Shown here: piece after piece, positions 41,991-63,975 of the stretch
How positions within the stretch are numbered: position 1 is the first letter of the stretch
How the letters are laid out: each line of letters opens with the position of its first letter
Assembly: GCA_965261645.1 (NCBI GenBank)
Contig: CBDHDJ010000004.1
Coordinates: 1,263,362 to 1,327,361 of the forward strand
Reading direction: 5' to 3'
Source: Alphaproteobacteria bacterium
GTDB taxonomy: Bacteria; Pseudomonadota; Alphaproteobacteria; SHVV01
Length of the DNA stretch: 64,000 bases
Made by a program: the position numbers and the translations under genes
Notes under the pieces: generated by a model
The model's input: only the letters and a program-made list of their open reading frames with translations
Database searches by the model: none
What the model was told of the DNA's origin: nothing

Positions 41991-41994
41991 GGAC

Positions 41995-42444: not shown

Positions 42445-42453
42445 AACATGAAC
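42439..42453 (-). promoter_or_regulatory. alphaproteobacterial-type LexA (SOS) box
   Basis: GAACATAACATGAAC, a perfect GAAC-N7-GAAC direct-repeat operator, positioned at the umuD start. Confidence 0.6.
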
Positions 42454-45600: not shown

Positions 45601-47096
45601 CAAGCCACAGCTGTGGCGATGATGTTGTTCCCGTGTTCGCGGTAAAGATCAGCGATGGGTCGCAGCGTCGTGGTCTTGCCCGAGCCTGCCGCTGCCTCGA
45701 TGATGGCGACCCGGCCGCCGGATGAGGTGACCGTCCTTATTGCCGTGATCTGTTCTTCGCTCAACGGATAACCCGCCGCCAGAAGCCCCGCCACCTTTGC
45801 CTCGATGGCCTGGGCGGACAGGGAATGTCCCGTACCTGCGGCCATTCCTGCCGCCATGTCACGGACTTCAAGCTCCATTTGGAGGTTGTGACGTGTTGAA
45901 TAGAGCCTGGTATGCATCATGTCAGCCCGGCCTTCGGCCGACCGTGGCGGCCGGGTCAGGCGCACGACCTCCGGGCTCAGAAGAACACGCTCTATGCTTG
46001 TCGCGACCGCATCGCGGTTCAGGAGTCCGGCGGTGGCATTGCCGACCCGCTCGACGATATCCGGCAGTCGGAAGACTGCTTCCTCGCGTGTAAGGCGGTA
46101 CGGTAGATCTTCCAGAATCGCGGTTAAGTCTCGGATCTGTTGCAGTGTAATATCCTCAACTTTGCCCAATAGCGAGACGATCAGCGCCTCGCGTTCTATA
46201 AAGCCGTCCGCTTCGCCACGCCAGCGCGCGTGCCGGATCTCCGGGTCATTGTCGGGAGATTTGCCGGCCCGTGTGATCTTGTTCGCCGCCGCTGCACGCG
46301 GCGCGTTGCCCTCGACCGCAAAGCCCATCTCCCTGGCGGCGTCGATTATCGCCGCCCGGCGCTTTGACCAGTGTCCCATCAGATCTTCGGGCATGCCTGC
46401 GACCCGCGTGAACTCTCCATCCTTGCCGTACTGTTCCATGCGGATGCCGAGACGCTCTTGCAGACTCCATGCCATGGCATTGCGGTAGACTGCCCCCGCC
46501 GCCTTCATCCAGTTGTAGACCGGGTGTTGATGCAAAGCCCGGTACTTGCCGTCCTGGTGTGTCCGGGCGGCATTGAAGATCACGCAGTGGGTATGAAGCT
46601 GCGGGTCGTTGTCCCGGCTGGTTCCATGCTGGAACATAGCGGCCGTGATATCGGCCGGCAGCACCTCTATATCGCCATCCCGATTACGGATGCGGGTATA
46701 GGCGCAATGGCGCAGCACCGTTTCTTCCAGTGCTATACGCGCGGCATCGTTATGCGCCTGCTCGATCTCCGAACGCAGACCGGGGTCGGCGACCGCCCAC
46801 AAGGCGGAGACGCTTTTGTCGGCGGAGAAGGTCATGTCGAGACCCGCCGAACGGCGCTCGCTGCCGGCATTCTGTGTGAGTTTAGCTCCGGTCTTAGGTG
46901 CGAAGCCGTTGTACAGCCGGTGGAAGTCACTGCTATCGATCTTGCCGCCATCGGCCAGACCGAACAGGCCCTTCGGATTGAACCAGACGCCATCCGGTTC
47001 TTCTCCCGCTGTGTAGTATTCGTTGGGATGACGGAAGGAGCGTTGGCTCTCCAGGTAGTAGGCAGCTGACGCGGCCTGGGCGAGAGTCGCTACCAT
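42675..47096 (-). CDS. traA: conjugative relaxase-helicase, MobF/TrwC-TraI type with extended C-terminal tail
   Basis: N-terminal relaxase His-triad region (HGTSRDNDPQLHTHCVIFN), a central AAA_30/UvrD-like helicase (Walker A IIEAAAGSGKTTTL), and a long charged C-terminal tail with an internal duplication. Confidence 0.85.
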   Translation of the reverse strand: MVATLAQAASAAYYLESQRSFRHPNEYYTAGEEPDGVWFNPKGLFGLADGGKIDSSDFHRLYNGFAPKTGAKLTQNAGSERRSAGLDMTFSADKSVSALWAVADPGLRSEIEQAHNDAARIALEETVLRHCAYTRIRNRDGDIEVLPADITAAMFQHGTSRDNDPQLHTHCVIFNAARTHQDGKYRALHQHPVYNWMKAAGAVYRNAMAWSLQERLGIRMEQYGKDGEFTRVAGMPEDLMGHWSKRRAAIIDAAREMGFAVEGNAPRAAAANKITRAGKSPDNDPEIRHARWRGEADGFIEREALIVSLLGKVEDITLQQIRDLTAILEDLPYRLTREEAVFRLPDIVERVGNATAGLLNRDAVATSIERVLLSPEVVRLTRPPRSAEGRADMMHTRLYSTRHNLQMELEVRDMAAGMAAGTGHSLSAQAIEAKVAGLLAAGYPLSEEQITAIRTVTSSGGRVAIIEAAAGSGKTTTLRPIADLYREHGNNIIATAVAWRTAVALGNDVDARPFCVDKLLRLAARGGIEIDGDTTIIVDEAGMLSTRQAHHILQLSERHGAKIVFAGDTQQQQPVEAGPGLRLVRDAVGSVRVDRIRRQKADLEDILVHVHGENPEAARFRTGMMGGQERTRILTEYDEMVDKAVFTPWQVAASEALRDGNAASAIAAHHARDRFHIGYDEEKTLTGLVDDWDRYQRANPGKSSVVLARTRAEVRALSHLMRERRFAALTDGEQPDTDRVTVIVSRGTEDERTTSPLEIARGDRLRIGATHWEKQLFNGTVITVDDFKVQRGEAGTEPSVLISARTEDGRTVSFHHDEIRDWYGNIRLDHGYALTITSAQGLTVDRTFLLADARPARETIYPAATRHRERLDIYVNRAPLVLDIADRRADNDREVAVTDTEVRAWLAERWSRSQPKEAALDYMADGIWQDSRENVRENNSRSIRETRGEPLEARPVANDNALARIARDVRRTAFGWRHAQAVSTFAAGHQEVLAAYDDLRERTRTQGDTVALGPAYQETLTRHSALLKQAEAFRARPDDFASLLAERGGIGRKDLDAFEELHTRAQRHRRAATMRYVHRIRREAEQAPEQQPGPELRQGELPLEDDHAALDGRAETVERTATTAPSRSPAATTADAGAPATDAETAKPDWLEPYEALRRDWNSVIERVQQTGEPIFYAKGYADMMPRMQALADNRDIAAETRAPMIRALENHQRDFSARNFVVDYLDAAERHMGNYAALQSAAESLDIPTAEVPDHPDWRQEADRLAAAGEAILSDKEAYGVHLDHILIGDTRLKWALSDLREAIRRDSAAIRENAVTETQERSSPAPTPQESARGAQSKAHEFRRLQSAAYHASGDERIAARKAFDDYRERESKHYTTPGEDRRHARDIHEETRQQPSSPQTDEERRREAQSKAHEFRRLQSAAYNATGDERIAAQKAFDDYREREFKKDEKHEEKKRQTRKKSKSLRMRLQ
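42752..43115 (+). repeat. two roughly 125-bp near-identical direct repeats (period 221 bp) inside the 3' end of traA
   Basis: TTGAACTCGCGCTCGCGATAGTCGTCGAACGCC... recurs at 42973. It encodes a duplicated approximately 42-aa AQSKAHEFRRLQSAAY..DDYRERE module. Confidence 0.6.
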
Positions 47097-47497
47097 GGTG
47101 CTCGCTCCGTGGCGGCGCTGTTGGTGAGATATATAACCTGGTCCAGGCGCTGCCCGATTTCGACCGTGATAATTCTCATGGTTCCAGTCCCGGAAATTCC
47201 TACGCTTTACAACAGGTTACGGAAATACCCGGACGATTTTGTACAACATGGCAGGGTTTTATGAACTCATTGAAATCTAAGCACATAAAGGTGCAGAGGT
47301 GTGCGTAGTTTTACATACCCTCTGATGTTTCGCGAGAGGATATAGACTGCATAATCGGAGATCAAGGGGAATTTGGCCCTGCCTTGGTACGTGGCGGCAC
47401 ACTTGAAATGGCCGTTCGAATGGCGGAATTGACCGGCTGTCGGGCCAATGGCAGAATCCGGGCTTGCTCGCGGATTCTGGAAACAGCGGGGAGATGG
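47097..47497 (+). other. candidate oriT / divergent promoter region between traA and a small accessory gene
   Basis: Locally low GC. Direct repeats CGGAAAT(T/A)CC and T(T)ACAACA(G/T)GG are present, along with a GTGCGTA word reminiscent of MobF nic regions. No nic site is proven. Confidence 0.3.
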
Positions 47498-48145: not shown

Positions 48146-49075
48146 TTATGCGGCGGCGAGAAGGACGGGGATTCCGACCTTGCGTGCCTTGTCGATCATG
48201 TTATTCGTGATGCCGGAGCCGGGGAAGGCGACGAGGCCTTTCGGCAGGAAGTTGAGCAGGACGTCGTTACGCCGGAAGGGCGCGGCTTTGCCGTCCCGGT
48301 CCCAGTTCGGCTTGCAGACGACCTGGTGAACGCCGTTCTTCTCGGCCCAGCTTGCCGCGATTTTCTCCGCACCGGGTCCACCGCCGTGTAGCAGGACCAT
48401 ATCGTCGTACTTGAGCTTGATGCTGTCCAGGGAGTGCCAGATGGCGGTGACGTCGTCAAAGTCCTTGCCGCCGGTGAAGGCGACCAGGGTGCCCTCGGGC
48501 AGATGTGCAGAGGTCTCACGGTCCTTGCGGGCGCGGAGGTAGTCGCGGGCGTCGATGGCGGCGGAAGTTAGTTTGCCGGTCTGGCTGCTGTGCGACCCGT
48601 TGCGCGGACGCCAGGTATCGCCGGTCTCGGTGCGGTATCCCTCTGCGGCGAGGTCGCGCATGGCCTCGAAGGCATCGCGGCGATTACCGAGGTTCTGGAC
48701 CCGATCGGTGAGGCGTTCGAGTTCGCAGGACTTGATCTCGGAGCCGTCCTGCTCGCGCTGGAGGTCTTTCATTTCGGGCGCGATCTTGTCGATGCCGCGG
48801 TCGAGGCGCTGGACCTGGGCGTGCAGTGCATTGACGAAGCCCCAGAGGAGGCTCTCGCGTTCGTCGGAGAGCTGCGTGCCGTCCGGTGCGACCACACCGG
48901 CCAGGATGTGGATCGCTTCCTCGATTCCGGAAAGTGCTTCGTCCTCGTTCCAGATATCCCGGTTGTCGAACTCGTCGGGACCAGGGGTCGCGCCGAACAG
49001 GGCAGCCTGTTCGCAAGCCATTGCGGTCGGAGATGACGTTTCGGTTCTGATGAAGTTCTGCATGAGTCTCTCCAT
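48146..49075 (-). CDS. DUF2493 (SLOG superfamily) domain protein with an unknown N-terminal domain
   Basis: C-terminal roughly 110 aa (LVAFTGGKDFDD ... LLHGGGPGAEK ... VAFPGSGITNNM) look like a DUF2493/SLOG Rossmannoid domain. The N-terminal roughly 200 aa were not recognised. Confidence 0.55.
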   Translation of the reverse strand: MERLMQNFIRTETSSPTAMACEQAALFGATPGPDEFDNRDIWNEDEALSGIEEAIHILAGVVAPDGTQLSDERESLLWGFVNALHAQVQRLDRGIDKIAPEMKDLQREQDGSEIKSCELERLTDRVQNLGNRRDAFEAMRDLAAEGYRTETGDTWRPRNGSHSSQTGKLTSAAIDARDYLRARKDRETSAHLPEGTLVAFTGGKDFDDVTAIWHSLDSIKLKYDDMVLLHGGGPGAEKIAASWAEKNGVHQVVCKPNWDRDGKAAPFRRNDVLLNFLPKGLVAFPGSGITNNMIDKARKVGIPVLLAAA

Positions 49076-49351
49076 TGCTATGTTGCTATCCTCCGAGGCG
49101 GGCTGCCCCGTCGTGATGATTCTTTGGATCACGCGCTCGCAGCGGAGCCACGATGGCCGGAATGCCTGCGCCGGAGTAATGCGCGAGTGGTGCGGGCGCA
49201 GGGAGCGGAGCGAGCGAGCCACGGTCGCGTATTCCACCGGCGCTAGCCGCGCAGCGGCGTGGCATTACGAGCTATCGCCGCAACGGAGCGTAAGCGGAGT
49301 GGAGGACCCCGCAGGGGTTGGCACAGCGAGAACGTGTGGGACAATGAGGCA

Positions 49352-50389
49352 TCATGACGGGCTAATTATTCTCCCACTCCCACGCCTCTCTTCCACCGTT
49401 TCCCCGGACTCGGTGCTTACAATAAGGGGCGCGATTCGAGCCGCGAGAGTTTCTTCTCCGAAGGCAATGAGATCGTCATTAAAATCGGAGTGTTCGGGAA
49501 CGATCACGATTGAGGGAATGCTGCGTTCCACGCAACGGCGCTGAAGATGATTTGCGGCGTGCCCGCCTTCCATGTCTTTATCGCGGGCGATGATCAACAG
49601 CGCGAGGTCTTGGGGCGGTTCGAAGGCGCCGAGACTGCCCGCTGATAGAGCCGCCGCGGCATGAATGCCGGGGACGGCGGTGACCAGCGATAGAGCGGTT
49701 TCGATGCCCTCGCCGGCAAGCAGGATCGCGCCGGAGGCGGATCCGCCGAAGCGCACGGCCCGGCCGTAGACGCGCCCAAGCGCTTTGCGAGGGCGGGCGA
49801 GGTTGGCTTTCTCGGGTAGATTGGGATCGAGCCAGGTGCGTTGCACGCCCTCGATGGCGCCATCATCGCCGGTGACGGCGGCGACAAGTGCCGGGAGGCG
49901 GTGGATGCCGTCATCGCCGCGATGGATGAGATCGGGATGAAACCGCAAGGCCGGGAAGCGGCAATGGCCGATGGCGCGGGCGTGCAGGTAGGCTTCCGCA
50001 TGGGTGCCATCGATGGGCCGGCAACGCCGCCAAAGGCGGCGCGCCGCTTCTACACGGTCATAGCTACAGGGGTGATCGCCGCCATTGGCGGGAGTGGACG
50101 GTGGCAGGGCGAGGAACGCGAGGGCCTCCTCCATGGCGTGCCGCAGCGATGCTCCGCCGGTGTGCAGACGGATGAGATCGAGCAGATCGCCATGCTCGTT
50201 GGTCGCGGCGTCGGTCCATTTTCCGGGTATGCCTGGAGGCGCCAGACGCACAAAGAGGGAGCGACCCTTACGGCCGCTTGTGTCGCCGATGGTCCAGTAT
50301 CTGCCCTGCCTGCGTCCGCGGGGAAGGTAGCAGCGGCAGACATCTTCTGCCCGTGTGCTTAACGCAGCGGCAATTTCAGTGGCGTTCAT
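49352..50389 (-). CDS. Toprim-domain protein, conjugative-element primase-like
   Basis: Toprim acidic motifs (ILLAGEGIETALS ... LLIIARDKDMEGG) are preceded by a Cys/His-containing N-terminal domain. Confidence 0.6.
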   Translation of the reverse strand: MNATEIAAALSTRAEDVCRCYLPRGRRQGRYWTIGDTSGRKGRSLFVRLAPPGIPGKWTDAATNEHGDLLDLIRLHTGGASLRHAMEEALAFLALPPSTPANGGDHPCSYDRVEAARRLWRRCRPIDGTHAEAYLHARAIGHCRFPALRFHPDLIHRGDDGIHRLPALVAAVTGDDGAIEGVQRTWLDPNLPEKANLARPRKALGRVYGRAVRFGGSASGAILLAGEGIETALSLVTAVPGIHAAAALSAGSLGAFEPPQDLALLIIARDKDMEGGHAANHLQRRCVERSIPSIVIVPEHSDFNDDLIAFGEETLAARIAPLIVSTESGETVEERRGSGRIISPS

Positions 50390-50602: not shown

Positions 50603-51046
50603 TTAGAACGGAATTTCGCTATCAACCACCGTCGCAGCGGTTTCGGCGGAAGGCACGGTCTTGTCGTTCATCGCCGGTGCGCCGTTACCGTTCGGCTTAT
50701 CCAAGAACTGGACCCTGCCGCCGGGAACCAGAAGGATCTCGGTCGAGAACCGGTCGCTGTCCTCGCCGTCCTTGCGCCACTTGCGGGTCTGCAGCTTGCC
50801 CGAGACGTAAACCAGGCGGCCCTTCTTCGCGTGCTTCTCCATCATCTCCACCAGGCCGTCCTGGAAGGTGACGATGCGGTGCCACTCGGTGCGGTCCACC
50901 TTGTCCCCTGAGTTTTTGTCGAGGTAACTTTCATCGGTCGCGATCGAGACGTTGGCGACGCGGCCGCCGTTGGTGAGGTGGCTGATGGTGGCGTCGGCGC
51001 CGAGGCGTCCGATGAGTTGCGCGTTATTCAATCCGAACATGATCAA
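50603..51046 (-). CDS. ssb: single-stranded DNA-binding protein
   Basis: OB-fold N-terminus (LIGRLGAD ... EWHRIVTF) and an acidic C-terminal tip DSEIPF. Confidence 0.85.
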   Translation of the reverse strand: MIMFGLNNAQLIGRLGADATISHLTNGGRVANVSIATDESYLDKNSGDKVDRTEWHRIVTFQDGLVEMMEKHAKKGRLVYVSGKLQTRKWRKDGEDSDRFSTEILLVPGGRVQFLDKPNGNGAPAMNDKTVPSAETAATVVDSEIPF

Positions 51047-51958: not shown

Positions 51959-52231
51959 TCAATGGGTGGCTTCATCGCGAGTGGCGGACATGGCGCGGGC
52001 AGCGATGGCGGACCAGGCATCTCGATCAAGGCCGATGCGGGCGTTGAGTCGGTCGCAGATTCGCAAGGCATCGTCGAGGCAGAGCGCCACCAGCGCCGTG
52101 GGGACGTAGCCCGGCATCGAATCGAACACGATTCGTATCTGCTGCGGCATGTTGTCGAAGTCATAAGCGGGACAAAACGCGTAGACGGGATCGTCGGGCA
52201 GCGTATGGGATGTCATGGCGATATCTTCCAT
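51959..52231 (-). CDS. hypothetical protein
   Basis: 90-aa acidic ORF immediately downstream of the methylase-helicase gene. Confidence 0.3.
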   Translation of the reverse strand: MEDIAMTSHTLPDDPVYAFCPAYDFDNMPQQIRIVFDSMPGYVPTALVALCLDDALRICDRLNARIGLDRDAWSAIAARAMSATRDEATH

Positions 52232-52354: not shown

Positions 52355-55300
52355 TTACGCTGGGGTCGCAGCCGCGAGCGGCCAGCGTTCGAGGATGCGG
52401 CCGAGGTCGATGTATTCGGGCACGAACACACGGGTCCGCCACGAGACGATCTCGGTGGCGCACCCCATGCGCTTGAGTGCCGCGAGATCGTTGTCGGCCG
52501 GTCCCTCGATCTCGACGCGGCCAGCGCCCATCAGGCGCCGCCTTGCGAGGCGCCAGCCGTTGGCGAGATCGAAGGACGCACCGCGGATCAGGATCGCCTC
52601 GTGCATCTCGGCCGAACTCATGACCGGTCCGCCGGCCAGTCCGAAGGCGTCGCGAAAGGCGTGCGCCTGCTCGGGCGTCAGAACCCGGCCGAGCAGGCTT
52701 TCCCCGGCATCGGTCGCAAGCCGGCGCACCCGCATGTTCTCGCCCGGCAGGCGGTCCCATATGGGGAGCAGTAGGCCGGTGACCAGCCACAGGCGGGATT
52801 CGGTGTGGCTGGGCAGCCCTTCGATCTCCGCATCCCACAAACTGCGCCAGCGATCTTCGCCTGCATCCTCCCAGTTCGAGGCGGCAAGTTCCTCCGCGGC
52901 CATGGGCTCGCGGGCGGCGGGACGGACCAGGCGGACCCGGGCTTCGACCCCGCCGTCCTCGAACATCCGCGAGGGCGCGGGCAGAACAACGGCTGCACGC
53001 TTCGAGCGGGTGTTGATGACGGGCCGCCCGTCGCGCCAGGCGAGGGCATCGTCCGCCTGGAGCGGCACGAGCCGGTCGCGGCGGACGATCTCGACAAGTT
53101 CGGTGGTGGCGCCCGAGGCTTCATGAACGTGAACCGCCTCGCGCGAGGAGATGCAGAGCGAGTCGGCCCGGATGGTCTCGACACCCTGCTCGTGGGTCCC
53201 GGCCTCGATGGCCTGTTCGATATTGGCCTCGATGCGGGTTTCCAGCTCGGCGAACAGTTCGTTCTGCTCGGCGATGGGCAGGGCCAACAGGCGGTTGAGG
53301 AACCGGGGCATCGGCGGCAGGTCTTCCTTGAGCGAGCCTTCCCAGATCAGCTTCAACCCGGTGGCGTCCTCGAAGCGGTCCATGGACCAGCCCGCAATGT
53401 TGCCGCGCCACAGCGCGATGTAGAACTGGCGCAGCGCCACCTTGGCGTAGGGGCTCTCCAGATTGTCGCTGGCCCGGAACAGGGTGGCGTCGCCGCCGCC
53501 CATGGCGGTCTGCGAATCGCGCTGTCCCCGGGTGATGGCGCCGAGGCTGTCGAGACGCCGGGCGATGGTGGCGATGAAGCAGCGCTCGCCCTTCACATCC
53601 GTGGTGACCGGGCGGAACAGAGGGGCCGAGGCCTGGTGCGTTCGATGGGTGCGGCCCAGGCCCTGGATTGCTTGGTCGGCCCGCCAGCCCGGCTCCAGCA
53701 GGTAATGGATACGCCGCGCAGTGTTGCCGCAGCCGAGATCGGCGTGATAGCTGCGCCCGGTGCCGCCGGCCATGGAGAAGACGAGGATGCGTTTACCGCC
53801 CGCCATGAAGGCGGCGGTCTCGGCGAGGTTGGCCGAGGCCGGGCGGTTGCGTAGCGCCAGGCGCTCGCCGGACGTATCGGCGATACGCAAGATCCGGCGC
53901 GAGCGGCCGGTGACCTCGGCGACGGCCTCGTCGCCGAAGCGGTGGAGGATCTGGTCGAGCGCCGCCTGTACCGGCGGCAACGCCGCGAGCTTCTCGATCA
54001 ACGCGTCTCGCGCAGCGACTGCTTCCTGGCACAAGACCGGGTTGCCCTCGGCGTCGGTCACGGGCCGCGACATGAGATTGCCCTCGTCGTCGGTGAAGGG
54101 TTCCTGCAATTGCACCGGGAAGGCGTGGGCCAGATATTCCAGGCACGCCTCCCTCGGCGTCAGGTCGACGGAGATGTCGTCCCATTCCGAGACGGGGATC
54201 TCGGCGATGCGCCGGTCCAGCAAAGCCTCGCCGGTGGAGACCAGCTGGATGACGCAGGCATGGCCGGCCTCGAGATCGCTCTCCACGGACCGGATCAGCG
54301 AGGGGCATTTCATGGCGGTCAGGAGATGGCCGAAGAAGCGCTGCTTCGCCCCCTCGAAAGCCGACAGCGCGGCGGACTTGGCGTTCTTGTTCAGGGTGGC
54401 ATCGCCTTCCATGATGCCGGTGGCTTTCAGGGCGTCTTCTATATTGCGGTGGATCACCTTGAAGGCCCCGGCATAGGCGTCGTAGATGCGCCGCTGTTCC
54501 GCAGTCAGGGGATGTTCGAGCAGCTCGACCTCGACTCCGTCATAGCTGAGTGCGCGGGCCTGATAGAGCCCGAGGGCCTTCAGATCGCGGGCAACCACCT
54601 CCATCGCCGCGACCCCGCCGGCCTCCATGGCGGTGACGAAATCGGTACGCTGTTCGAAGGGCGTCTCGCCCCCTGAACCCGCGCCGCCCCACAGGCCGAG
54701 GCGCCGCGCATAGGCCAAACCGGGCACCGTGGTGGCCCCGGTGGCGGAGACATACAGGATACGGGCATCGGGCAAGGCGTTCTGCAAACGCAATCCGGCG
54801 CGTCCCTGCTGCGAGGGGGCCGTATCGCCGCGCGATCCCTTGGACCCTGCGGCGTTGGCCATGGCGTGCGCCTCGTCGAACACGATGACGCCGCCAAAGG
54901 CATGGCGGGAGTCTTCATCCATACGATCCGCAAGCCAGCCCACGATCTGTTCGAGGCGCGAGGACTTTTCCTGGCGGGCGGGCGAGCGCAAGGTTGCATA
55001 GGTGGTGAACAGGATTCCGGACTCTTGTGGAATATCGGTCCCCTGGCGGAACTTGCCCAACGGGATGATGTCGGCCTCGCTGCCGCCGATCGCGGCCCAG
55101 TCGCGGCGCGCGTCCTCGAGAAGCTTGTCGGAGGCGGACAGCCACAGCGCCCGGCGGCGGCCGCGCAGCCAGTGGTCGAGGATAATGGCGGCGACCTGGC
55201 GGCCCTTGCCGCAACCGGTGCCGTCGCCCAGCATCCAGCCGCGCCGGAAACGCACTGGCGCGGACAGGGCTTCACCGTCGCCGGCCGCATCCGCGCCGGG

Positions 55301-56971
55301 TTCAAGACCGGCGCTTACGGCTTCTCCCTTATCTGCTTTATTGGCGGTCTCCGGGACGCTATCGCAGTCATCGCTGTTGTCATCGTCATCGTCCGCGACG
55401 CGTGCGACGGTCTCCCAGCCCTCGCCAATGCGGTAGAGCGCGGAAAGATGGCGGCCGTGGGCCTGACCGGCGAGGATGACGCTTTCGAGCTGGGCGTCGG
55501 ACAGTAGTTCGTCCGTCACGATACGCACGGGCAGCATCGGGCGGTAGGCCGGCACGGGATGGGGCACCGCCGCCATGGCGGCGGATTGCACCAGCGGCGT
55601 CGGATGTTCGCAGGCGCCGGGAATGCGCGCGGTCCGGGGACACCACGGCTCGTAGACGCCGGCATGGGTGGTCTCCGGTTCGTCTGCAGTGCCTTGCCCG
55701 TTTGCGGATGGGGTTTCGTAGTCGAGTTCGGCCACCGGCCCCCAATCACGGACTTGCGGGGCTGCGGGTTTGGTGTTGGGCGCGGTGGCCGCTGTGCGCT
55801 TTCGTGGGGCCGGCCGTGCGGCGGCATGGCCGAACACATCGCCGGCCGGAACAAGCGCAGCGGCTATTGGCACGACCGCCTGCCGTTGCGGCACATTGGC
55901 GGCGATGGCTGCAAGCAACCCGGCGGCGGTGGGGACGGATGCCCGTGCGTCGATCGGGACGCCCTGGGCATTGGCGGGATCACGGTCGATTACGGTCAGC
56001 CGGGTATCGAAGGTCGTGCCGCGCCGTGCGTAGGCGCGCCCGTCGATGGCGATGGAAAAGACGGTGCGCGGCGGTGGATCGAGGCGCTCAAAAGCGCGGC
56101 TCCAGGCGGCATCGCCTGGGATGCAGCCGGCCGACGTGATCGCCACCAGCCGCCCGCCCGTCGGAAGCATGGAGAAGGCGGAACGGAGGTGACGCAAATC
56201 CGCATCATGGCGGATGCGCTGGACCCCGGGGCTTGCCGAAAACGGCGGGTTCATCAACACCACTGTGGGATGCAGGCTCGGGAGATAATCGGCGATGGAC
56301 TCCGCGTTGTGACGGGTGACCGGCGCGTGCTCGAACAATCCGGCAAGCAACCCGACGCGGACGGCGGCGATCTCGTTCAGGTGCAGGGGATTCCCCGAAC
56401 GCGTGTCATCGGCGTGCTTGCCGAGAGCGCATTCGGCCATGACGGCGAGCATGCCGGTGCCGGCCGAGGGCTCCAGCACGATGTCGCCGGGCCGGATGGC
56501 AGCGGCTTGCAGCGCGGCGTAGGCGAGCGGCAAGGGGGTGGAGAACTGCTGCGGGGCAAGCTGTTCCTCCGACCGCCTTGTCTGGGACGGCTCCAGCGCC
56601 GCCAGGGTCTCCAGCATGGCGAGCATGGCGGCGGCCGATCCAGGTCCGGCGCCCGCCTCGCGGCGCATGAGACGGCCGTAACGCTGGATGAACAGCACCA
56701 TTGCGGCCTCGGCCGCTTCGTAGGCGTCCTTCCAGACCCAGGCTCCTTGCGTGTCATTGGCGCCGAAGGCCGCGCTCATGGCTTCGCGCAGGGCCTTTGC
56801 ATCGAGCGCGCGGCCCGCCTCCAGGCTGGGAAGCAGAGCGGTTGCGGCGGCCAGCAACGCGGCCGGCTTGGAGAGGACGCCCGGGGTATCGGCAATAGCT
56901 GGGGATGCGGGAAGGGGCTGGACGGCGGGCGGACGCGCGGGCGCGTTCGCCGCCGGTTGGGCGTCGAGCAT
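52355..56971 (-). CDS. N6-adenine methyltransferase fused to SNF2/strawberry-notch-like helicase (1538 aa)
   Basis: Methyltransferase motif I VLEPSAGTGMLAV and motif IV VVLMNPPF. P-loop GDGTGCGKGRQVA with DEAH-like VIVFDEAHAM. C-terminal GRTHRTHQ ... ARRLDSLGAITRG typical of strawberry-notch Helicase_C_4. Confidence 0.8.
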   Translation of the reverse strand: MLDAQPAANAPARPPAVQPLPASPAIADTPGVLSKPAALLAAATALLPSLEAGRALDAKALREAMSAAFGANDTQGAWVWKDAYEAAEAAMVLFIQRYGRLMRREAGAGPGSAAAMLAMLETLAALEPSQTRRSEEQLAPQQFSTPLPLAYAALQAAAIRPGDIVLEPSAGTGMLAVMAECALGKHADDTRSGNPLHLNEIAAVRVGLLAGLFEHAPVTRHNAESIADYLPSLHPTVVLMNPPFSASPGVQRIRHDADLRHLRSAFSMLPTGGRLVAITSAGCIPGDAAWSRAFERLDPPPRTVFSIAIDGRAYARRGTTFDTRLTVIDRDPANAQGVPIDARASVPTAAGLLAAIAANVPQRQAVVPIAAALVPAGDVFGHAAARPAPRKRTAATAPNTKPAAPQVRDWGPVAELDYETPSANGQGTADEPETTHAGVYEPWCPRTARIPGACEHPTPLVQSAAMAAVPHPVPAYRPMLPVRIVTDELLSDAQLESVILAGQAHGRHLSALYRIGEGWETVARVADDDDDNSDDCDSVPETANKADKGEAVSAGLEPGADAAGDGEALSAPVRFRRGWMLGDGTGCGKGRQVAAIILDHWLRGRRRALWLSASDKLLEDARRDWAAIGGSEADIIPLGKFRQGTDIPQESGILFTTYATLRSPARQEKSSRLEQIVGWLADRMDEDSRHAFGGVIVFDEAHAMANAAGSKGSRGDTAPSQQGRAGLRLQNALPDARILYVSATGATTVPGLAYARRLGLWGGAGSGGETPFEQRTDFVTAMEAGGVAAMEVVARDLKALGLYQARALSYDGVEVELLEHPLTAEQRRIYDAYAGAFKVIHRNIEDALKATGIMEGDATLNKNAKSAALSAFEGAKQRFFGHLLTAMKCPSLIRSVESDLEAGHACVIQLVSTGEALLDRRIAEIPVSEWDDISVDLTPREACLEYLAHAFPVQLQEPFTDDEGNLMSRPVTDAEGNPVLCQEAVAARDALIEKLAALPPVQAALDQILHRFGDEAVAEVTGRSRRILRIADTSGERLALRNRPASANLAETAAFMAGGKRILVFSMAGGTGRSYHADLGCGNTARRIHYLLEPGWRADQAIQGLGRTHRTHQASAPLFRPVTTDVKGERCFIATIARRLDSLGAITRGQRDSQTAMGGGDATLFRASDNLESPYAKVALRQFYIALWRGNIAGWSMDRFEDATGLKLIWEGSLKEDLPPMPRFLNRLLALPIAEQNELFAELETRIEANIEQAIEAGTHEQGVETIRADSLCISSREAVHVHEASGATTELVEIVRRDRLVPLQADDALAWRDGRPVINTRSKRAAVVLPAPSRMFEDGGVEARVRLVRPAAREPMAAEELAASNWEDAGEDRWRSLWDAEIEGLPSHTESRLWLVTGLLLPIWDRLPGENMRVRRLATDAGESLLGRVLTPEQAHAFRDAFGLAGGPVMSSAEMHEAILIRGASFDLANGWRLARRRLMGAGRVEIEGPADNDLAALKRMGCATEIVSWRTRVFVPEYIDLGRILERWPLAAATPA

Positions 56972-57217
56972 GAATTGTCTCCCAATTAGAATGGTCGGGC
57001 CGGAGCTGTGGCCGGGGCCTTACAGCTCCGGCGAAGGGCCGGGTGGTGCCGAAAGCCGGTGTCCTCGCTCTCCCGGCCCCGGTTCACCCGGTCCGGGCGC
57101 AACCCGCCTCCTTGCGGACGGGGGCACGGATATGGAGGATTATGCGGGCGCGGTCCGCGGTATCAGGCCGGCACGATGCCGATGCGCTTGCCCCGGGGTT
57201 GGCGGACAGGAACCTGG

Positions 57218-57697
57218 ATGAACCGAACTCTCGTCATCTTCGTTGCATTGTCCGTGTTCTTCTCTATCGGTCCTCTCGCCGATGAAATCCCTTCCGGATT
57301 CGACCCGGGCAGTTCCAAAGCCAAGGGATTGATCCTCACGTTCGAAGACTGGCCGCCGGATAGTGTGGACACGGACCCTCTTCTCCAAAAGCTTCATTCC
57401 GCCGGGCTCAAGGCGGCGCGCAAACTGCCGCGGTTCAGGGTTTGGGTGTTCGAATGGGATGAATGGCAGGAGGGCCGCAGGGCCGAAAACCTGTGTATTG
57501 AACTGCTGCTGGACGATCGAACCTCTTCCCTGTTGGAGAGCTGTGAACCGGATTACTTGCTGCATCCCGCCCGGCCCGCGGCCGGCGGCAACCAGCCGCG
57601 GTGTCATGCCGGTCCGATGTCGATGCGCTCGCCCCAGGGCTCGCGGTTCCTTGTCCCCGGCGGCGACGGCCCCCAGTTGCAAAAAATCACGGGATAG
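57218..57697 (+). CDS. secreted hypothetical protein
   Basis: Clear signal peptide MNRTLVIFVALSVFFSIGPLA. Its 3' end overlaps the convergent vWA gene by about 94 nt, so the C-terminal extent is doubtful. Confidence 0.3.
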   Translation: MNRTLVIFVALSVFFSIGPLADEIPSGFDPGSSKAKGLILTFEDWPPDSVDTDPLLQKLHSAGLKAARKLPRFRVWVFEWDEWQEGRRAENLCIELLLDDRTSSLLESCEPDYLLHPARPAAGGNQPRCHAGPMSMRSPQGSRFLVPGGDGPQLQKITG

Positions 57698-59858: not shown

Positions 59859-59881
59859 GGCGTGGGTCTCCCGGGGTGGTG

Positions 59882-61083: not shown

Positions 61084-61584
61084 TCAGGATTGCCGGCGGT
61101 GGAACGCCGTCCTGCCGCTCACGGTTCCCGTCCCCCGCGGCCGGTTCGCCGGCTTTGCCGAACCTGCGGCGTCCGCGGGCTTGCCGGCGAGGATGCGGGC
61201 AGCGGCTTCGAGTTCAGATCCCGATTCGACGATACGACCGGCGGCGCGCGCGGCCTCGGCGTAAATGGACAGGGAATGGTTGGCGGTAAAATGAATATCG
61301 CGCTCGATGCCGAGCCCGAAGGGTCCCCGGTATTCGGTCAATTCGAGCAAACCGATTGACCCCAATTCGGGTGTGCCGAAGCCCAAATCAGCCAGGCCGA
61401 ATCCACATTCGTCAGGGTATTCGGGATCGATCTCCGACAGCAGCAAGGTGCCGGTCCCGCCAGCATTGAACCACTTGACCACGGGCTCGTGGTCGGGCCC
61501 CCTTCGGGTCCCATTTGCAAGCAGCTTGGTGCGCTGTGCTTCGGTGAGCAGTTTCATGGAATGGTCCTCTCGAATATCGGTCAT
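61084..61584 (-). CDS. DUF2958-family protein, common on ICEs and plasmids
   Basis: MKLLTEAQRTKLLANG ... PVVKWFNAGG ... TWLLSEIDPEYPD ... GLADLGFGTPELGSI. Start taken at the second Met. The family name is by recall. Confidence 0.6.
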   Translation of the reverse strand: MTDIREDHSMKLLTEAQRTKLLANGTRRGPDHEPVVKWFNAGGTGTLLLSEIDPEYPDECGFGLADLGFGTPELGSIGLLELTEYRGPFGLGIERDIHFTANHSLSIYAEAARAAGRIVESGSELEAAARILAGKPADAAGSAKPANRPRGTGTVSGRTAFHRRQS

Positions 61585-61688
61585 CGGGATGCACCCGCGC
61601 CCCGGCCCGGTGTCGGCGGGCCGAAAGCCGGCCCCGGCCCGGAGTGGCGCGAAGCAGGCGGTTTGCGATGGATGAATGCCGTCGGCGA

Positions 61689-62185: not shown

Positions 62186-63355
62186 TCATTGCGCCGTCTC
62201 CCGGTCGCCGGCATCGGTTGTGGGTTCCGTGCAAACGGGTCCGATATCGACGCTGACCTTGCCGCCGCACACCACGATGGTGACCGTGCGGCCGCGCGGC
62301 ATGAGCCAGAAGATTTCCCGCCATACCGCATCCGCGATGGTGCGCTGGCGGGCTTCCTCGACCGAGCACAACAGCTTGAGCGACATATGCAGGGCGTCTT
62401 CCTCGAAGCGGGTGAGTTGTGTTTCCCAAGAGTCCGCATCCGCGTCGTCGCTGGGGCTGAAGAACGCGGCGCGCAGCAATCGGGCGAGTTCCTCGGGCGC
62501 GATGCCGCTGTCCGCCGTCACCAGGGGCAGCGCGTCATGGATCGATGACCAGGCCTCGCCCGCGAAGGCGAGATCGGCGGGAACGGCGATGGTGTCGCAT
62601 TTGTGGAAGCAATGGCGCGGTGATTTAGGCGGATGCAGAACATTCAGGTGCATCACGATGTCCTCGGGCCGTTCCGGCTCTTCGCCGTTCTCCCGGTTGG
62701 TGAAGTAATCCAGAGAACGAACGGCGCCATCCACGGTCACAAGGGTCTCGATGCCGGTGACGCGCGCGAGCGTGTCGTACCAGGGATAACCCTCGAAACG
62801 TGGCTCGGGGGCGAACAGCCGGAGCGTGCGTTCCGATCCGTCCTGGAGCCCGGCAAGGCCGAGGGCGCGATGAAGCGCCCGGGCCTCGGGCGGCTCGGGG
62901 TCGGCCTGCATCACCAGCGCGCCGATGCCTACGCCTGCGAAAACGGACCGCTCGTCCCAATAGTCCGTGTCGGCGATGGCGGGACGCCAGGGACGCAGTT
63001 CGGCGGGCGGCTCGGGCATCTCGATCCCCGCCTCTTTCGCCTGGTGCCAGTCGGTCCAGGCAACGCGCGGAGCCGGATCGGCCTGCGCCATGGCGCGGTA
63101 GACGGCAAGCCGCGCGGCCTCGCGCATCTCTTCCAGAAACGAGGTCTCTACCGCTTCCTTTCTCGCGGGCAGGACCAGCTCCAGATCGGGGCAGGAGTCG
63201 ATGTCGGCGCGCGCCGACCAGACGCCGCCTTCCACGGCGTCGATCTGTGGCAGGCGCACCGGCAGGGTCAGGCCATGAAAGTTGACGTCGGGGACGCGGT
63301 AGCCCGCATGGCTGTCCTTAAAAACGCCGAAGACGAGGCCCTTCCATGGTTCCAC
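62186..63355 (-). CDS. hypothetical protein, partner of the GHKL-ATPase ORF
   Basis: 389-aa ORF with a GTG start. It overlaps the 3' end of the GHKL ORF by 88 nt in another frame. This may be a separate gene or the continuation of a frameshifted single gene. Confidence 0.45.
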   Translation of the reverse strand: MEPWKGLVFGVFKDSHAGYRVPDVNFHGLTLPVRLPQIDAVEGGVWSARADIDSCPDLELVLPARKEAVETSFLEEMREAARLAVYRAMAQADPAPRVAWTDWHQAKEAGIEMPEPPAELRPWRPAIADTDYWDERSVFAGVGIGALVMQADPEPPEARALHRALGLAGLQDGSERTLRLFAPEPRFEGYPWYDTLARVTGIETLVTVDGAVRSLDYFTNRENGEEPERPEDIVMHLNVLHPPKSPRHCFHKCDTIAVPADLAFAGEAWSSIHDALPLVTADSGIAPEELARLLRAAFFSPSDDADADSWETQLTRFEEDALHMSLKLLCSVEEARQRTIADAVWREIFWLMPRGRTVTIVVCGGKVSVDIGPVCTEPTTDAGDRETAQ

Positions 63356-63975
63356 ATGGAGCGCGCCGTCGAGAAAGGCGCGCCGCTCGACAACCTCGCC
63401 GTCGATGGTACCGGCAGGGGATAGTGGCGAGCAGCGGTCTGCAGGAAAGCGCGCACCGCGTGGGGCGCTTCGGACGCGTCGAAGGTAACCGAGGTTCCAT
63501 GGGGCCAGGGGGCGCTGTCGTCCGGGACGACATGGGCCCCATCGCGGCCAAGAAAGTGAGCGGGCTCCAGAACCAGGCGGTAGCCGGGGCTTGGATCCCC
63601 GCCGGGGACGCGCCAGCGCAACGTGCAGCGCCGGCGCGAGAGGGCGAGAAGCCCGAACCCGGCGGGATCTTCCGCCTCGGCGATGCCGTCCTTCCAGACG
63701 CTCTCGCCGAAGGTCAGCAGGACGGCGGGATCGGCGATTCCCACGCCGTCGTCGGTGATAGTGACGCGGGTGGTATCTCCGTCCTGCTCGATGGTCGCGG
63801 CAACGCGGTTGGCGCCGCCACGGCGTGAGTTTTGCAGCGTCTCGGTGAAAATATCGGCAAGGCCAGCCGAAAACAGCCGTGTCACCTTGTCGATGGCGCT
63901 GTCGCCGACCCGGGCGTGGATCGTGGCGGAACTATTGCCGGCCTCGGCCGTAACGGCATTCTGTGCGGTAGACAT
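63268..63975 (-). CDS. GHKL-type (histidine kinase/HSP90/MORC-like) ATPase domain protein
   Basis: N-box ETLQNSRRGGA, G1 box DDGVGI and G2 box AGFGLL. An AGGAGA RBS lies 6 nt upstream of the ATG at 63975. The C-terminal 100 aa are of uncertain authenticity. Confidence 0.55.
   Translation of the reverse strand: MSTAQNAVTAEAGNSSATIHARVGDSAIDKVTRLFSAGLADIFTETLQNSRRGGANRVAATIEQDGDTTRVTITDDGVGIADPAVLLTFGESVWKDGIAEAEDPAGFGLLALSRRRCTLRWRVPGGDPSPGYRLVLEPAHFLGRDGAHVVPDDSAPWPHGTSVTFDASEAPHAVRAFLQTAARHYPLPVPSTARLSSGAPFSTARSMWNHGRASSSAFLRTAMRATASPTSTFMA

What the first reader, a model, noticed from the sequence alone, without database searches (positions are those of the whole stretch)
52355..56971. 1538-aa methyltransferase-SNF2/strawberry-notch helicase fusion
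An N6-adenine methyltransferase domain (motif I and NPPF) is fused to a P-loop/DEAH helicase and a strawberry-notch-type C-terminal helicase domain (GRTHRTHQ). Proteins of this kind on mobile elements are poorly characterised. Proposed roles are protection of incoming DNA from restriction, or defence-related DNA translocation.
Basis: partly seen in the sequence, partly recalled or inferred. Interest (0 to 1): 0.55.

Follow-up and report, generated by a model that had tools for sequence, protein, structure and literature searches.

The report
Methyltransferase-helicase fusion on a conjugative element
This is a real 1538-residue gene on an integrated conjugative element that joins a DNA-adenine-methylase-like domain to a Strawberry-notch-type motor; it belongs to a very large, already annotated family that nobody has tested in the lab, and it most likely helps newly transferred DNA escape restriction.

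Summary
The ORF exists at 52355-56971, but on the minus strand. It is 1538 aa, starts at an ATG and has a GGGAGA ribosome-binding site.

The helicase half is clearly Strawberry-notch type (Pfam AAA_34 3e-108, Helicase_C_4 9e-87). The methyltransferase half is too divergent for Pfam. It is supported by:
- motifs that do not vary across 22 relatives of 43-75% identity;
- NPPF kept in 127 of 133 cluster representatives;
- dN/dS of 0.16-0.26;
- a predicted structure whose closest solved folds are type I HsdM subunits;
- a profile match to the methylase domain of phage P1 DarB (probability 93%).

No target-recognition domain, nuclease or known defence-system signature was found.

The gene lies in a co-oriented block with ssb, toprim, DUF2493, DUF2958 and ParB genes, next to a TrwC relaxase. 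This looks like the leading/establishment region of an integrative conjugative element.

The family is very large: more than 6600 protein clusters and 652 plasmid records. RefSeq already names it, and Iyer et al. 2017 discussed it. I found no experimental study.

This is a new member of a known kind, of modest interest. The most likely function is DarB-like protection or establishment of incoming DNA, which remains unproven.

The parts
52355..56971 (-). Complete ORF, 1538 aa plus stop codon: methyltransferase / Strawberry-notch helicase fusion
   Evidence: full-length homologues in 80 loci
56978..56983 (-). Shine-Dalgarno GGGAGA, 6 nt upstream of the ATG
   Evidence: read from the sequence
56999..57032 (.). 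Perfect 11-bp inverted repeat with a 12-nt loop, 28-61 nt upstream of the start codon. Role unknown; the exact sequence is absent from the 84 loci fetched.
56588..56881 (-). N-terminal four-helix bundle (aa 31-128), preceded by a disordered 30-residue tail. It sits where HsdM-N / LPD36 sits in related methylases.
   Evidence: AF2 model, pLDDT about 81-95 in this stretch; W78 and E88 invariant
55937..56566 (-). Class I SAM-dependent amino-methyltransferase domain (aa 136-345). Gamma-type motif order: TP motif, motif I, motif II, motif IV.
56534..56551 (-). QQFSTP 'TP' motif (aa 141-146)
   Evidence: aligns with the YFTP of HsdM and the YYTP of DarB
56453..56476 (-). Motif I, LEPSAGTG (SAM-binding loop, aa 166-173)
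   Evidence: the identical octapeptide occurs in P1 DarB
56240..56251 (-). Motif IV, NPPF (catalytic, aa 241-244)
   Evidence: invariant in A1; kept in 127/133 representatives
55610..55936 (-). Ala/Pro-rich, predicted disordered linker (aa 346-454). No target-recognition domain is present.
   Evidence: pLDDT 31-43; highest dN/dS, 0.31-0.50
54476..55609 (-). Pfam AAA_34, first ATPase lobe (aa 455-832). It contains an acidic insert (aa 527-538, 55358-55393), Walker A (55196-55228), DEAH (54866-54877) and SAT (54737-54748).
53963..54475 (-). Helical insert between the two ATPase lobes (aa 833-1003)
   Evidence: conserved; dN/dS 0.06-0.09; predicted helices in a low-confidence model
53174..53962 (-). 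Pfam Helicase_C_4, the Strawberry-notch C-terminal helicase lobe (aa 1004-1266), with motif VI QGLGRTHRTHQ (53633-53665)
52358..53173 (-). Conserved C-terminal region of unknown fold (aa 1267-1538)
   Evidence: conserved W1367, W1379, G1399, L1401-P1403, W1405, G1503; no Pfam hit; AF2 model too poor to use
51959..52231 (-). Small 90-aa ORF just downstream, conserved in 76 of 80 related loci. No family match.
50603..51046 (-). Single-strand DNA-binding protein gene, same strand
   Evidence: Pfam SSB 2.7e-24; present in 61 loci
49352..50389 (-). DUF7146 + Toprim_3 protein gene. In three of the plasmids examined it directly follows the fusion gene.
48146..49237 (-). DUF2493 / YspA-type SLOG protein gene, third member of the conserved trio
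47170..47360 (.). AT-rich intergenic stretch with inverted repeats upstream of the relaxase gene. Candidate oriT; the nick site and strand were not determined.
   Evidence: inference
42675..47096 (-). TrwC-type (MOBF) relaxase-helicase gene, 1473 aa
   Evidence: Pfam TrwC 3.3e-68, AAA_30 1.6e-39
62186..63975 (-). GHKL-ATPase-like gene upstream, split here into two frames (63268-63975 and 62186-63355). It is a single ORF of about 580 aa in roughly 70 of 80 related loci.

Best explanation
The gene encodes a two-engine DNA enzyme carried by an integrative conjugative element.

Shown here:
- The N-terminal third is a compact SAM-dependent amino-methyltransferase of the type I HsdM / P1 DarB lineage. 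It has all catalytic motifs and a four-helix N-terminal cap, but no target-recognition domain of its own.
- A disordered linker of about 110 residues tethers it to a Strawberry-notch-type SF2 ATPase with intact ATP-binding and arginine-finger motifs.
- A conserved C-terminal domain of about 270 residues follows; its fold is unknown.

Inferred:
- The gene lies in the leading/establishment region. It sits between the relaxase/oriT end and the ParB gene, and is co-oriented with ssb, toprim and DUF2493 genes.
- It would therefore be expressed early in a new recipient, possibly from the incoming strand.
- The ATPase, like its SWI2/SNF2 relatives, would track along the incoming DNA while the tethered methylase places N6-methyladenine with little sequence specificity.
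- The element would thus be protected in cis against several restriction systems until it integrates. This is the role proposed, but never demonstrated mechanistically, for phage P1 DarB.
For: Architecture:
- Pfam AAA_34 3e-108 and Helicase_C_4 9e-87.
- Invariant Walker A, DEAH, SAT and QGxGRxxR motifs, and invariant methylase motifs X, I, II and IV, in 22 relatives of 43-75% identity.
- NPPF in 127/133 and LEPSAGTG in 118/133 representatives of 50%-identity clusters.
- Purifying selection on every domain; methylase dN/dS 0.16-0.26.

Methylase lineage:
- AF2 model: helical bundle at 35-124, Rossmann core at 144-330, disorder from about 360.
- The top Foldseek PDB hits are type I M subunits (2okc 1.7e-9, 7eew, EcoKI M, PacII, EcoR124I), plus BsaXI and BpuSI.
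- hhalign against P1 DarB: probability 93%, E 2.8e-7 over 186 columns, with the same domain order.
- PHROG hits fall on the methylase segment of giant phage proteins.

Context:
- SSB, Toprim, DUF2493, DUF2958 and TrwC relaxase genes are all on the same strand; umuDC lies beyond the relaxase.
- A ParB homologue is upstream in 61 of 80 loci, and just past the window end in the closest locus.
- Three plasmids show ArdC-like / DUF2958 / ParB / RadC / DUF932 genes, then the fusion, then toprim, then DUF2493.
- Of 652 plasmid records with a homologue, 346 are typed conjugative and 82 mobilizable.

Not a restriction or defence enzyme:
- No nuclease or specificity domain was found, and PADLOC gives only a weak mad2 hit on the methylase core.

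Literature:
- The methylase-SWI2/SNF2 dyad, with Sno-type variants on plasmids, has been described (PMC5512222).
- Orphan methylases are enriched in leading regions (PMC11541004).
- Leading-region methylases act on entering DNA (PMC7736820).
Against: - No methylation, ATPase or anti-restriction activity has been measured for any member of this family. The mechanism of DarB itself is undefined (PMC11109961).
- The substrate is not settled by sequence. The best PDB sequence hit for the family profile is the tRNA m2G methylase TrmN, and no Pfam DNA-methylase model reaches threshold.
- The helicase is a different SF2 subfamily from DarB's, and the helicase halves do not align.
- The nick site and the transferred strand were not determined, so 'leading region' rests on the general rule that the relaxase gene enters last. 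A GTCTATA heptamer near 47330 on the minus strand resembles, from my memory, the R388 nick sequence. If that is the real nick, the polarity would be the opposite.
- The tight linkage to a toprim gene and ssb fits a replication/establishment role equally well.
- 'No target-recognition domain' comes from a model of moderate confidence. The unmodelled middle and C-terminal domains could supply specificity.
Confidence: 0.5

Rival explanations
1. Establishment / replication helper. The Sno-type motor works with the neighbouring toprim protein, SSB and DUF2493 protein. Together they convert the incoming single strand to duplex DNA, or clear relaxase, SSB or RecA from it. Methylation would be secondary, for example marking the new duplex.
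For: The order fusion gene, toprim, DUF2493 is conserved in Mesorhizobium, Sphingobium and Pseudosulfitobacter plasmids. The toprim start overlaps or abuts the fusion's stop codon. In this clade ssb, and in L007 also RadC, lie in the same run. Toprim is present in 60-64 of 80 loci and SSB in 61.
Against: SWI2/SNF2-type ATPases are duplex translocases rather than replicative helicases (family knowledge; PMC5512222). The strict conservation of the methylase catalytic motifs shows that methylation itself is under selection. The toprim protein has no recognised primase zinc-finger domain in Pfam.
Confidence: 0.2
2. Anti-restriction without methylation. The motor displaces or stalls translocating type I/III enzymes or other DNA-bound defence proteins, or provokes restriction alleviation. 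The methylase domain would serve mainly as a DNA- or base-binding module.
For: DarB protects in cis against type I enzymes by an undefined mechanism. No recognition domain is seen. The long flexible linker would suit a tethered binding module.
Against: The SAM-binding residues (E167, G171, G173, E200) and the catalytic NPPF are invariant and under purifying selection. That is not expected if catalysis were dispensable.
Confidence: 0.12
3. A defence or inter-element competition enzyme of the restriction-modification kind (type ISP, DISARM or BREX-like) that marks self DNA and attacks or excludes phages or rival elements.
For: Methylase-helicase pairing is typical of type I, III and ISP enzymes and of DISARM (family knowledge; PMC5512222). 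There is a weak PADLOC hit to mad2 on the methylase core (8.9e-7). An AAA_5/MoxR plus VWA-metallopeptidase module lies just upstream.
Against: The protein has no nuclease domain and there is no adjacent nuclease or specificity gene. No PADLOC system model matches the helicase. The upstream AAA_5/VWA module is present in only 13-26 of 80 loci. The steady neighbours are transfer and establishment genes, not defence genes.
Confidence: 0.06
4. An epigenetic or chromatin-type regulator of the element's own genes, for example of excision or transfer bistability, by analogy with eukaryotic Strawberry notch as a transcriptional co-factor.
For: Eukaryotic Sno derives from these bacterial proteins (PMC3417536). 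ParB and a GHKL ATPase-like gene are conserved upstream.
Against: There is no DNA-binding regulator domain or recognition domain. Nothing in the sequence links the gene to regulatory sites. The analogy with eukaryotes is remote.
Confidence: 0.05

Closest known systems
RefSeq/PGAP 'strawberry notch family protein', also named 'bifunctional class I SAM-dependent methyltransferase/DEAD/DEAH box helicase', of alphaproteobacterial plasmids (e.g. WP_199201971.1 of Mesorhizobium, WP_013041738.1 of Sphingobium pCHQ1)
   Same: Same full-length architecture at 50-54% identity over about 96% of the length. The downstream toprim and DUF2493 genes are the same, and ParB, DUF2958 and ArdC-like genes lie upstream.
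   Different: In this clade ssb and several small ORFs sit between the fusion gene and toprim. A GHKL-like gene, and in some copies a MoxR/VWA module, sit between ParB and the fusion gene. There is also a clade-specific acidic insert at aa 527-538.
Phage P1 DarB (2255 aa), the archetype of the methylase-helicase dyad of Iyer et al. 2017
   Same: The methylase domain is homologous (hhalign probability 93%, E 2.8e-7) and shares the TP motif, an identical LEPSAGTG and N-x-P-F. The order is the same, with the methylase N-terminal and the SF2 ATPase C-terminal. Both are carried by a mobile element that must survive restriction on entry.
   Different: DarB's ATPase is a classical SNF2-rel_dom/Helicase_C type, not AAA_34/Helicase_C_4, and the helicase halves do not align. 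DarB is 700 residues longer and is packaged in the virion. The Sno-type fusion is absent from 50,697 phage records.
Type I restriction-modification M subunits (HsdM: EcoKI, StySJI, EcoR124I)
   Same: They are the closest solved folds to the N-terminal 345 residues, including an N-terminal helical domain. Motif order and the NPPF/NPPY catalytic loop also match.
   Different: There is no HsdS partner or recognition domain, no HsdR-type nuclease, and the ATPase is fused in cis and belongs to another subfamily.
Leading-region orphan methylases of conjugative plasmids (M.EcoGIX, M.BceJIII)
   Same: They are plasmid-borne, lie next to ssb and ParB-type genes and are oriented for early expression. 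They have degenerate specificity and a proposed role in protecting entering DNA (PMC7736820; PMC11541004).
   Different: As I recall them, those are ParB-methylase fusions without a motor domain, and they act on single-stranded DNA. No sequence relationship to them was tested here.
Eukaryotic Strawberry notch (Sno / SBNO1, SBNO2)
   Same: The same two Pfam helicase families define both. The eukaryotic proteins are thought to derive from bacterial selfish-element versions (PMC3417536).
   Different: As far as I know, the eukaryotic proteins lack the methylase domain and act as transcriptional co-factors.

Membership tests
Strawberry notch (Sno) family SF2 ATPases | Pfam AAA_34 N-terminal lobe plus Helicase_C_4 C-terminal lobe | tested here: met
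   AAA_34 3e-108 covering 1-306/306 of the model; Helicase_C_4 8.7e-87 covering 2-271/271
Strawberry notch (Sno) family SF2 ATPases | Intact ATPase motifs (Walker A GxGKG, DEAH, SAT, motif VI QxxGRxxR) | tested here: met
   G584, G586, G588, K589, G590, D699, E700, H702, S742-T744, Q1103, G1104, G1106, R1107 and R1110 are invariant in 22 relatives
Strawberry notch (Sno) family SF2 ATPases | C-terminal winged-helix domain (SnoC-wHTH of Iyer et al. 2017) | tested here: inconclusive
   aa 1267-1538 are conserved, but have no Pfam hit and the AF2 model is unusable (pLDDT 46.7)
EcoKI/TaqI-like (gamma-class) N6-adenine DNA methyltransferases | Motif order TP/X, then I (xxGxG), then II (acidic), then IV ((N/D)PP(F/Y)) | tested here: met
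   QQFSTP 141-146, LEPSAGTG 166-173, LNE 198-200, NPPF 241-244; invariant on alignment
EcoKI/TaqI-like (gamma-class) N6-adenine DNA methyltransferases | Rossmann methylase fold closest to known DNA N6A methylases | tested here: met
   Foldseek top hits are HsdM proteins (2okc 1.7e-9, 7eew, 2y7c, 7vs4), BsaXI and BpuSI. RNA m2G methylases (3tma, 5e71) are interleaved.
EcoKI/TaqI-like (gamma-class) N6-adenine DNA methyltransferases | Match to the curated family model (Pfam N6_Mtase or Eco57I, or an NCBIfam model) above threshold | tested here: not met
   No Pfam methylase family at E<0.1 for aa 1-450. NCBIfam gives only Erm37 at 0.0062, far below its cutoff.
EcoKI/TaqI-like (gamma-class) N6-adenine DNA methyltransferases | A target-recognition domain or a specificity subunit | tested here: not met
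   The model shows the catalytic core ending near residue 330, then a helix and disorder. No HsdS-like neighbour was found. Other domains of the protein cannot be excluded.
EcoKI/TaqI-like (gamma-class) N6-adenine DNA methyltransferases | Formation of m6A in DNA | not testable with these tools
   Needs methylome or LC-MS data
DarB-like methylase-helicase dyad / polyvalent proteins (Iyer et al. 2017) | Methylase domain of the DarB clade | tested here: met
   hhalign of the family profile against P1 DarB: probability 93.3%, E 2.8e-7, query aa 141-338 aligned to DarB 89-282
DarB-like methylase-helicase dyad / polyvalent proteins (Iyer et al. 2017) | N-terminal LPD36 domain (four helices, GxG[GAS] motif) | tested here: inconclusive
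   A four-helix bundle is predicted at 35-124 with a Gly-containing loop at 70-77. No LPD36 profile was available for comparison.
DarB-like methylase-helicase dyad / polyvalent proteins (Iyer et al. 2017) | C-terminal SWI2/SNF2-clade ATPase | tested here: met
   The ATPase is Sno-type. Iyer et al. place it in the SWI2/SNF2 clade and note that it is coupled to adenine methylases on plasmids. The subfamily differs from DarB's.
DarB-like methylase-helicase dyad / polyvalent proteins (Iyer et al. 2017) | Further effector domains in the same polypeptide (polyvalency), and delivery with the DNA | tested here: not met
   Only the dyad plus one unknown C-terminal domain was detected. Delivery cannot be tested here.
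Type I / ISP / III restriction enzymes | A nuclease domain (PD-(D/E)xK or similar) in the protein or an adjacent gene | tested here: not met
   No nuclease family in Pfam, NCBIfam or PADLOC for the protein or its neighbours
Known anti-phage defence systems (DISARM, BREX, MADS and others in PADLOC 2.0) | Match to system component models | tested here: not met
   Only mad2 at 8.9e-7, 26 bits, restricted to the methylase core aa 140-287
Leading-region (early-entry) genes of conjugative elements | Located on the non-relaxase side of oriT and oriented so that the transferred strand is the template | tested here: inconclusive
   The gene is 5-10 kb from the AT-rich relaxase-upstream region, co-oriented with ssb and pointing towards it. 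The nick site and strand were not identified.

The most novel reading that the evidence does not exclude
The fusion is a processive, essentially sequence-independent adenine methylation machine. A methylase without a recognition domain is dragged along DNA by a Sno-type translocase and coupled to the adjacent toprim/SSB functions. Methylation would then be laid down as the complementary strand of the incoming element is made, giving blanket protection against many restriction systems at once. If so, this compact family, which is present in culturable hosts, would finally expose the mechanism of the DarB class, unresolved since 1987. It would also show what the ancestral activity of Strawberry notch ATPases was.
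Probability: 0.15. Interest if true: 0.65.

Novelty: new member of a known kind. Interest (0 to 1): 0.3.

Why it matters
Methylase-helicase fusions are among the commonest large genes on conjugative elements, and no member of this Sno-type family has been studied biochemically. Even for the archetype, P1 DarB, the mechanism is undefined. Showing that such a protein methylates incoming DNA broadly would explain part of how these elements cross between distant hosts. Close relatives here occur at about 70% identity in MAGs labelled Alphaproteobacteria, Gammaproteobacteria, Binatia and Thermodesulfobacteriota. It would also give a bacterial reference point for the eukaryotic Strawberry notch proteins. 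This particular copy adds no new feature to the family. Its value is as one more well-conserved example with a clear mobile-element context.

Tried and rejected
1. AlphaFold2 of the helicase and C-terminal part (aa 441-1538, 29-sequence alignment of 75-95% identity) gave pLDDT 46.7 and pTM 0.30. I did not use it for fold search, so the C-terminal 270 residues remain uncharacterised.
2. A second large protein search with the diverse alignment A1, meant to widen the alignment for structure prediction, returned essentially the same 70-96% identical clades.
3. The family profile against PDB sequences found only methylases. No solved relative of the Sno helicase appeared at E<0.1.
4. tblastn against phages showed that the fusion is absent there. 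Only five weak hits to the methylase core were found.
5. PADLOC and NCBIfam gave no meaningful assignment.
6. I tried to locate the nick site in 47100-48140. There are several inverted repeats and an AT-rich stretch. A GTCTATA heptamer on the minus strand resembles the R388 nick as I remember it, but it would imply that the relaxase gene enters first. I treated it as unresolved, not as evidence.
7. The promoter/terminator scan and Rfam found nothing informative near the gene.
8. Restriction enzyme or defence system was considered and rejected, because there is no nuclease, no specificity subunit and no defence-type neighbours.
9. A spurious high-GC ORF was considered and rejected on the basis of the Pfam E-values, codon-position GC and dN/dS.
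10. Five literature searches found no experimental work on this family. The held library is open-access only, so this is not proof of absence.
Full report
**Observation.** The window holds one long ORF at 52355..56971. It is on the minus strand, 1538 aa long, and starts at an ATG. The plus-strand reading of the same coordinates is full of stops. Their positions were mapped:
- QQFSTP, aa 141-146
- LEPSAGTG, aa 166-173
- LNE, aa 198-200
- NPPF, aa 241-244
- GDGTGCGKGRQ, aa 582-592
- DEAH, aa 699-702
- SATG, aa 742-745
- QGLGRTHRTHQ, aa 1103-1113

A GGGAGA ribosome-binding site lies 6 nt before the ATG. The DNA is 64-68% GC, so long spurious ORFs are common here. This one is real for four reasons. 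Codon-position GC is 0.71/0.52/0.82. Pfam AAA_34 scores 3e-108 and Helicase_C_4 scores 8.7e-87, each over the whole model. Full-length homologues occur in 80 genomic loci. Overall dN/dS against the five closest copies is 0.16-0.17.

**The helicase half.** The two Pfam families are the ones that define Strawberry notch proteins. The ATP-binding and arginine-finger residues are invariant in an alignment of 22 full-length relatives of 43-75% identity (A1). A profile of that alignment found no solved structure for this half at E<0.1. My AlphaFold2 model of aa 441-1538 was too poor to use (pLDDT 46.7). The last 270 residues are conserved and have no Pfam match, so their fold is unknown.

**The methyltransferase half.** No Pfam or NCBIfam methylase model reaches threshold, so this domain needed separate proof. 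The evidence is as follows:
- On alignment A1, Q141, S144, P146, E167, S169, A170, G171, G173, N199, E200 and N241-F244 are invariant.
- Among 148 representatives of 50%-identity clusters found with the N-terminal 450 residues (3060 clusters at E<0.001), NPPF is kept in 127 of the 133 that cover it. LEPSAGTG is kept in 118 of 133.
- dN/dS of the domain is 0.16-0.26.
- The AF2 model of aa 1-450 has mean pLDDT 68.8, about 80-95 in most of the folded parts. It shows a four-helix bundle (35-124), a seven-stranded Rossmann-type core (144-330), one further helix, and then disorder to residue 450.
- The nearest solved folds are type I M subunits (2okc 1.7e-9, 7eew, EcoKI M, PacII, EcoR124I) and the type IIB/IIG enzymes BsaXI and BpuSI. 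tRNA m2G methylases are interleaved among them.
- The family profile aligns with the methylase domain of phage P1 DarB at 93% probability (E 2.8e-7, 186 columns). The two share the TP motif and an identical LEPSAGTG.
- PHROG hits fall on the methylase segment of giant phage proteins.

Two things stay inferred. One is the substrate, since the (N/D)PP(F/Y) motif also serves m2G RNA methylases and TrmN is the best PDB sequence hit. The other is the specificity. I saw no target-recognition domain and no specificity gene nearby.

**Surroundings.** The window carries part of an integrated mobile element. The genes identified are:

| Coordinates | Strand | Gene or feature |
|---|---|---|
| 27748-27838 | + | tRNA-Ser |
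| 28015-39319 | both | IS6-, IS3-, IS110- and IS5-type transposase genes |
| 30669-31886 | + | tyrosine integrase |
| 40671-42462 | - | umuDC |
| 42675-47096 | - | TrwC-type relaxase, 1473 aa |
| 47170-47360 | . | AT-rich intergenic stretch with inverted repeats |
| 48146-49237 | - | DUF2493/YspA |
| 49352-50389 | - | DUF7146-Toprim |
| 50603-51046 | - | SSB |
| 51959-52231 | - | 90-aa ORF, conserved in 76/80 loci |
| 52355-56971 | - | the fusion gene |
| 57604-59640 | - | DUF2201 metallopeptidase/VWA gene |
| 59882-60907 | - | AAA_5 gene |
| 61084-61740 | - | DUF2958 |
| 62186-63975 | - | GHKL-ATPase-like gene |

From 48146 onward these genes all read towards the AT-rich stretch.

In the closest related locus a ParB homologue lies just past the window's end, and ParB is upstream in 61 of 80 loci. 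Three annotated plasmids were examined: Mesorhizobium, Sphingobium pCHQ1 and Pseudosulfitobacter. They show the same core order of fusion gene, toprim, then DUF2493, with the toprim start overlapping or abutting the fusion's stop codon. ArdC-like, DUF2958, ParB, RadC or DUF932 genes lie upstream. These are the usual contents of leading/establishment regions (PMC11541004; PMC7736820).

I could not identify the nick site. The statement that the gene enters early, with the transferred strand as its template, therefore rests on the general rule that the relaxase gene enters last and on the common orientation of the genes.

**Distribution.** The family is very large:
- More than 6600 90%-identity clusters at E<=1e-10 among the 8000 candidates scored.
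- 652 plasmid records, 408 of them full length. All are below 60% identity to this copy and most are alphaproteobacterial; 346 are typed conjugative and 82 mobilizable.
- RefSeq names these proteins 'strawberry notch family protein' or 'bifunctional class I SAM-dependent methyltransferase/DEAD/DEAH box helicase'.
- The fusion is absent from 50,697 phage records.

The closest relatives (93-95%) and a broad shell at about 70% identity all come from metagenome-assembled genomes. These are labelled Alphaproteobacteria, Gammaproteobacteria, Binatia, Thermodesulfobacteriota and Poriferihabitaceae, often with three to five copies per genome. Some copies are truncated.

**What it most likely does.**

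*Shown:* the protein is a catalytically intact amino-methyltransferase of the HsdM/DarB lineage. It has no recognition module of its own. A disordered linker of about 110 residues tethers it to an intact Sno-type SF2 ATPase. It is encoded among transfer and establishment genes, without any nuclease or known defence-system signature.

*Inferred:* the protein is made early in a new recipient. The ATPase moves along the incoming DNA as SWI2/SNF2 relatives do, and the tethered methylase deposits m6A with low specificity. This would protect the element in cis against restriction.

This is the model Iyer et al. proposed for the methylase-SWI2/SNF2 dyad. They also noted Sno-type versions coupled to adenine methylases on plasmids (PMC5512222). 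It is not proven even for DarB, whose mechanism is still called undefined (PMC11109961). I give the model about 0.5.

The main rival, at 0.2, is a role in establishment or complementary-strand synthesis together with the tightly linked toprim and ssb genes. Anti-restriction without methylation (0.12), a restriction or defence enzyme (0.06) and an epigenetic regulator (0.05) are less likely, for the reasons given under the rival explanations.

**Comparison with known families.** The protein is a member of the Strawberry notch helicase family; both defining domains and all ATPase motifs were tested and met. Its methylase belongs to the DarB/HsdM lineage by motifs, fold and profile comparison, although it fails the curated Pfam thresholds. 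It works like the DarB-type dyad but is not a DarB orthologue. The ATPase is of another subfamily, the helicase halves do not align, and there are no extra effector domains. It is not a type I, ISP or III restriction enzyme, nor a DISARM or BREX component.

**Novelty and score.** The architecture, its link to plasmids and the proposed role are all in the literature and in RefSeq naming. This copy adds only clade-specific details: an acidic insert, extra genes within the operon, and a GHKL-like neighbour. It is a new member of a known, experimentally untouched kind. Interest is 0.3. That is modest because nothing here would surprise a specialist, but not negligible. The family is a compact and widespread route to the long-open question of how methylase-helicase fusions protect mobile DNA.

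Noticed in passing
window 62186-63975 (minus strand); compare L007:6158-7897: A GHKL (Bergerat-fold) ATPase-like gene of about 580 aa lies between ParB and the fusion gene. It is a single ORF in roughly 70 of 80 related loci, including the five closest. In this window it is split into two frames near 63409-63430, by either a frameshift pseudogene or a sequencing error. Its steady linkage to ParB and the methylase-helicase is unexplained.
   Followed up: partly
loci L001-L080: Close relatives come only from metagenome-assembled genomes. The same gene occurs at about 70% identity in MAGs labelled Alphaproteobacteria, Gammaproteobacteria, Binatia, Thermodesulfobacteriota and Poriferihabitaceae, often with 3-5 copies per genome (e.g. 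OZ253470.1 has L001, L002, L005 and L026; isolate b8bb52a1 has five). This suggests an element family that crosses phyla and accumulates in one community, possibly sponge-associated.
   Followed up: partly
window 51959-52231 (minus strand): A 90-aa ORF directly downstream of the fusion gene is conserved in 76 of 80 loci. It has no Pfam or NCBIfam match and could be a partner protein.
   Followed up: partly
window 57604-60907 (minus strand): A module of a DUF2201 metallopeptidase/VWA protein, an ORF with a weak DUF3150 match and an AAA_5 (MoxR-like) ATPase sits just upstream of the fusion gene. It is present in only 13-26 of 80 loci, so it is an optional insert in this region.
   Followed up: partly
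window 57155-57205 and 57596-57646: Two 51-nt direct repeats (82% identical, 441 bp apart) flank a segment that is missing from the closest loci L001-L005. It looks like a partial duplication of the 3' end of the upstream gene, or a small insertion between that gene and the fusion gene.
   Followed up: partly
window 47170-47360: An AT-rich stretch upstream of the relaxase gene carries an imperfect inverted repeat (CAGAGGTGT...ACCCTCTG). A GTCTATA heptamer on the minus strand resembles, from memory, the R388 nick sequence. This is the candidate oriT; its polarity is unresolved.
   Followed up: partly
window 40671-42462 (minus strand): A umuD (Peptidase_S24, 2.6e-28) and umuC (IMS, 7.5e-41) pair lies directly beyond the relaxase gene. 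Such pairs are reported to flank anti-defence islands on plasmids (PMC11541004).
   Followed up: no
window 27748-39319: tRNA-Ser (27748-27838) is followed by lower-GC DNA. This DNA holds an IS6-type transposase, a Rieske oxygenase, a tyrosine integrase (30669-31886), an IS3 element interrupted by an IS110 element (33723-36706), an M23 peptidase and an IS5-type transposase. It is probably one end of the integrated element plus cargo and IS debris. The other end is outside the window.
   Followed up: no
window 39821-40420 (minus strand): A 199-aa ORF has a clear EF-hand calcium-binding motif (EF-hand_1 3.6e-11). This is unusual in a bacterial mobile-element cargo region.
   Followed up: no
window 55358-55393 (aa 527-538 of the fusion protein): A run of acidic residues (DDDDDNSDDCDS) is inserted in the first ATPase lobe. 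It appears specific to this clade, since it served as a search peptide for close relatives.
   Followed up: no
proteins P0060, P0068 and others: Several database relatives of 88-94% identity are truncated. Two begin at residue 367, just after the methylase domain, and others stop early. This fits decaying copies or gene-calling across frameshifts in multi-copy genomes.
   Followed up: partly
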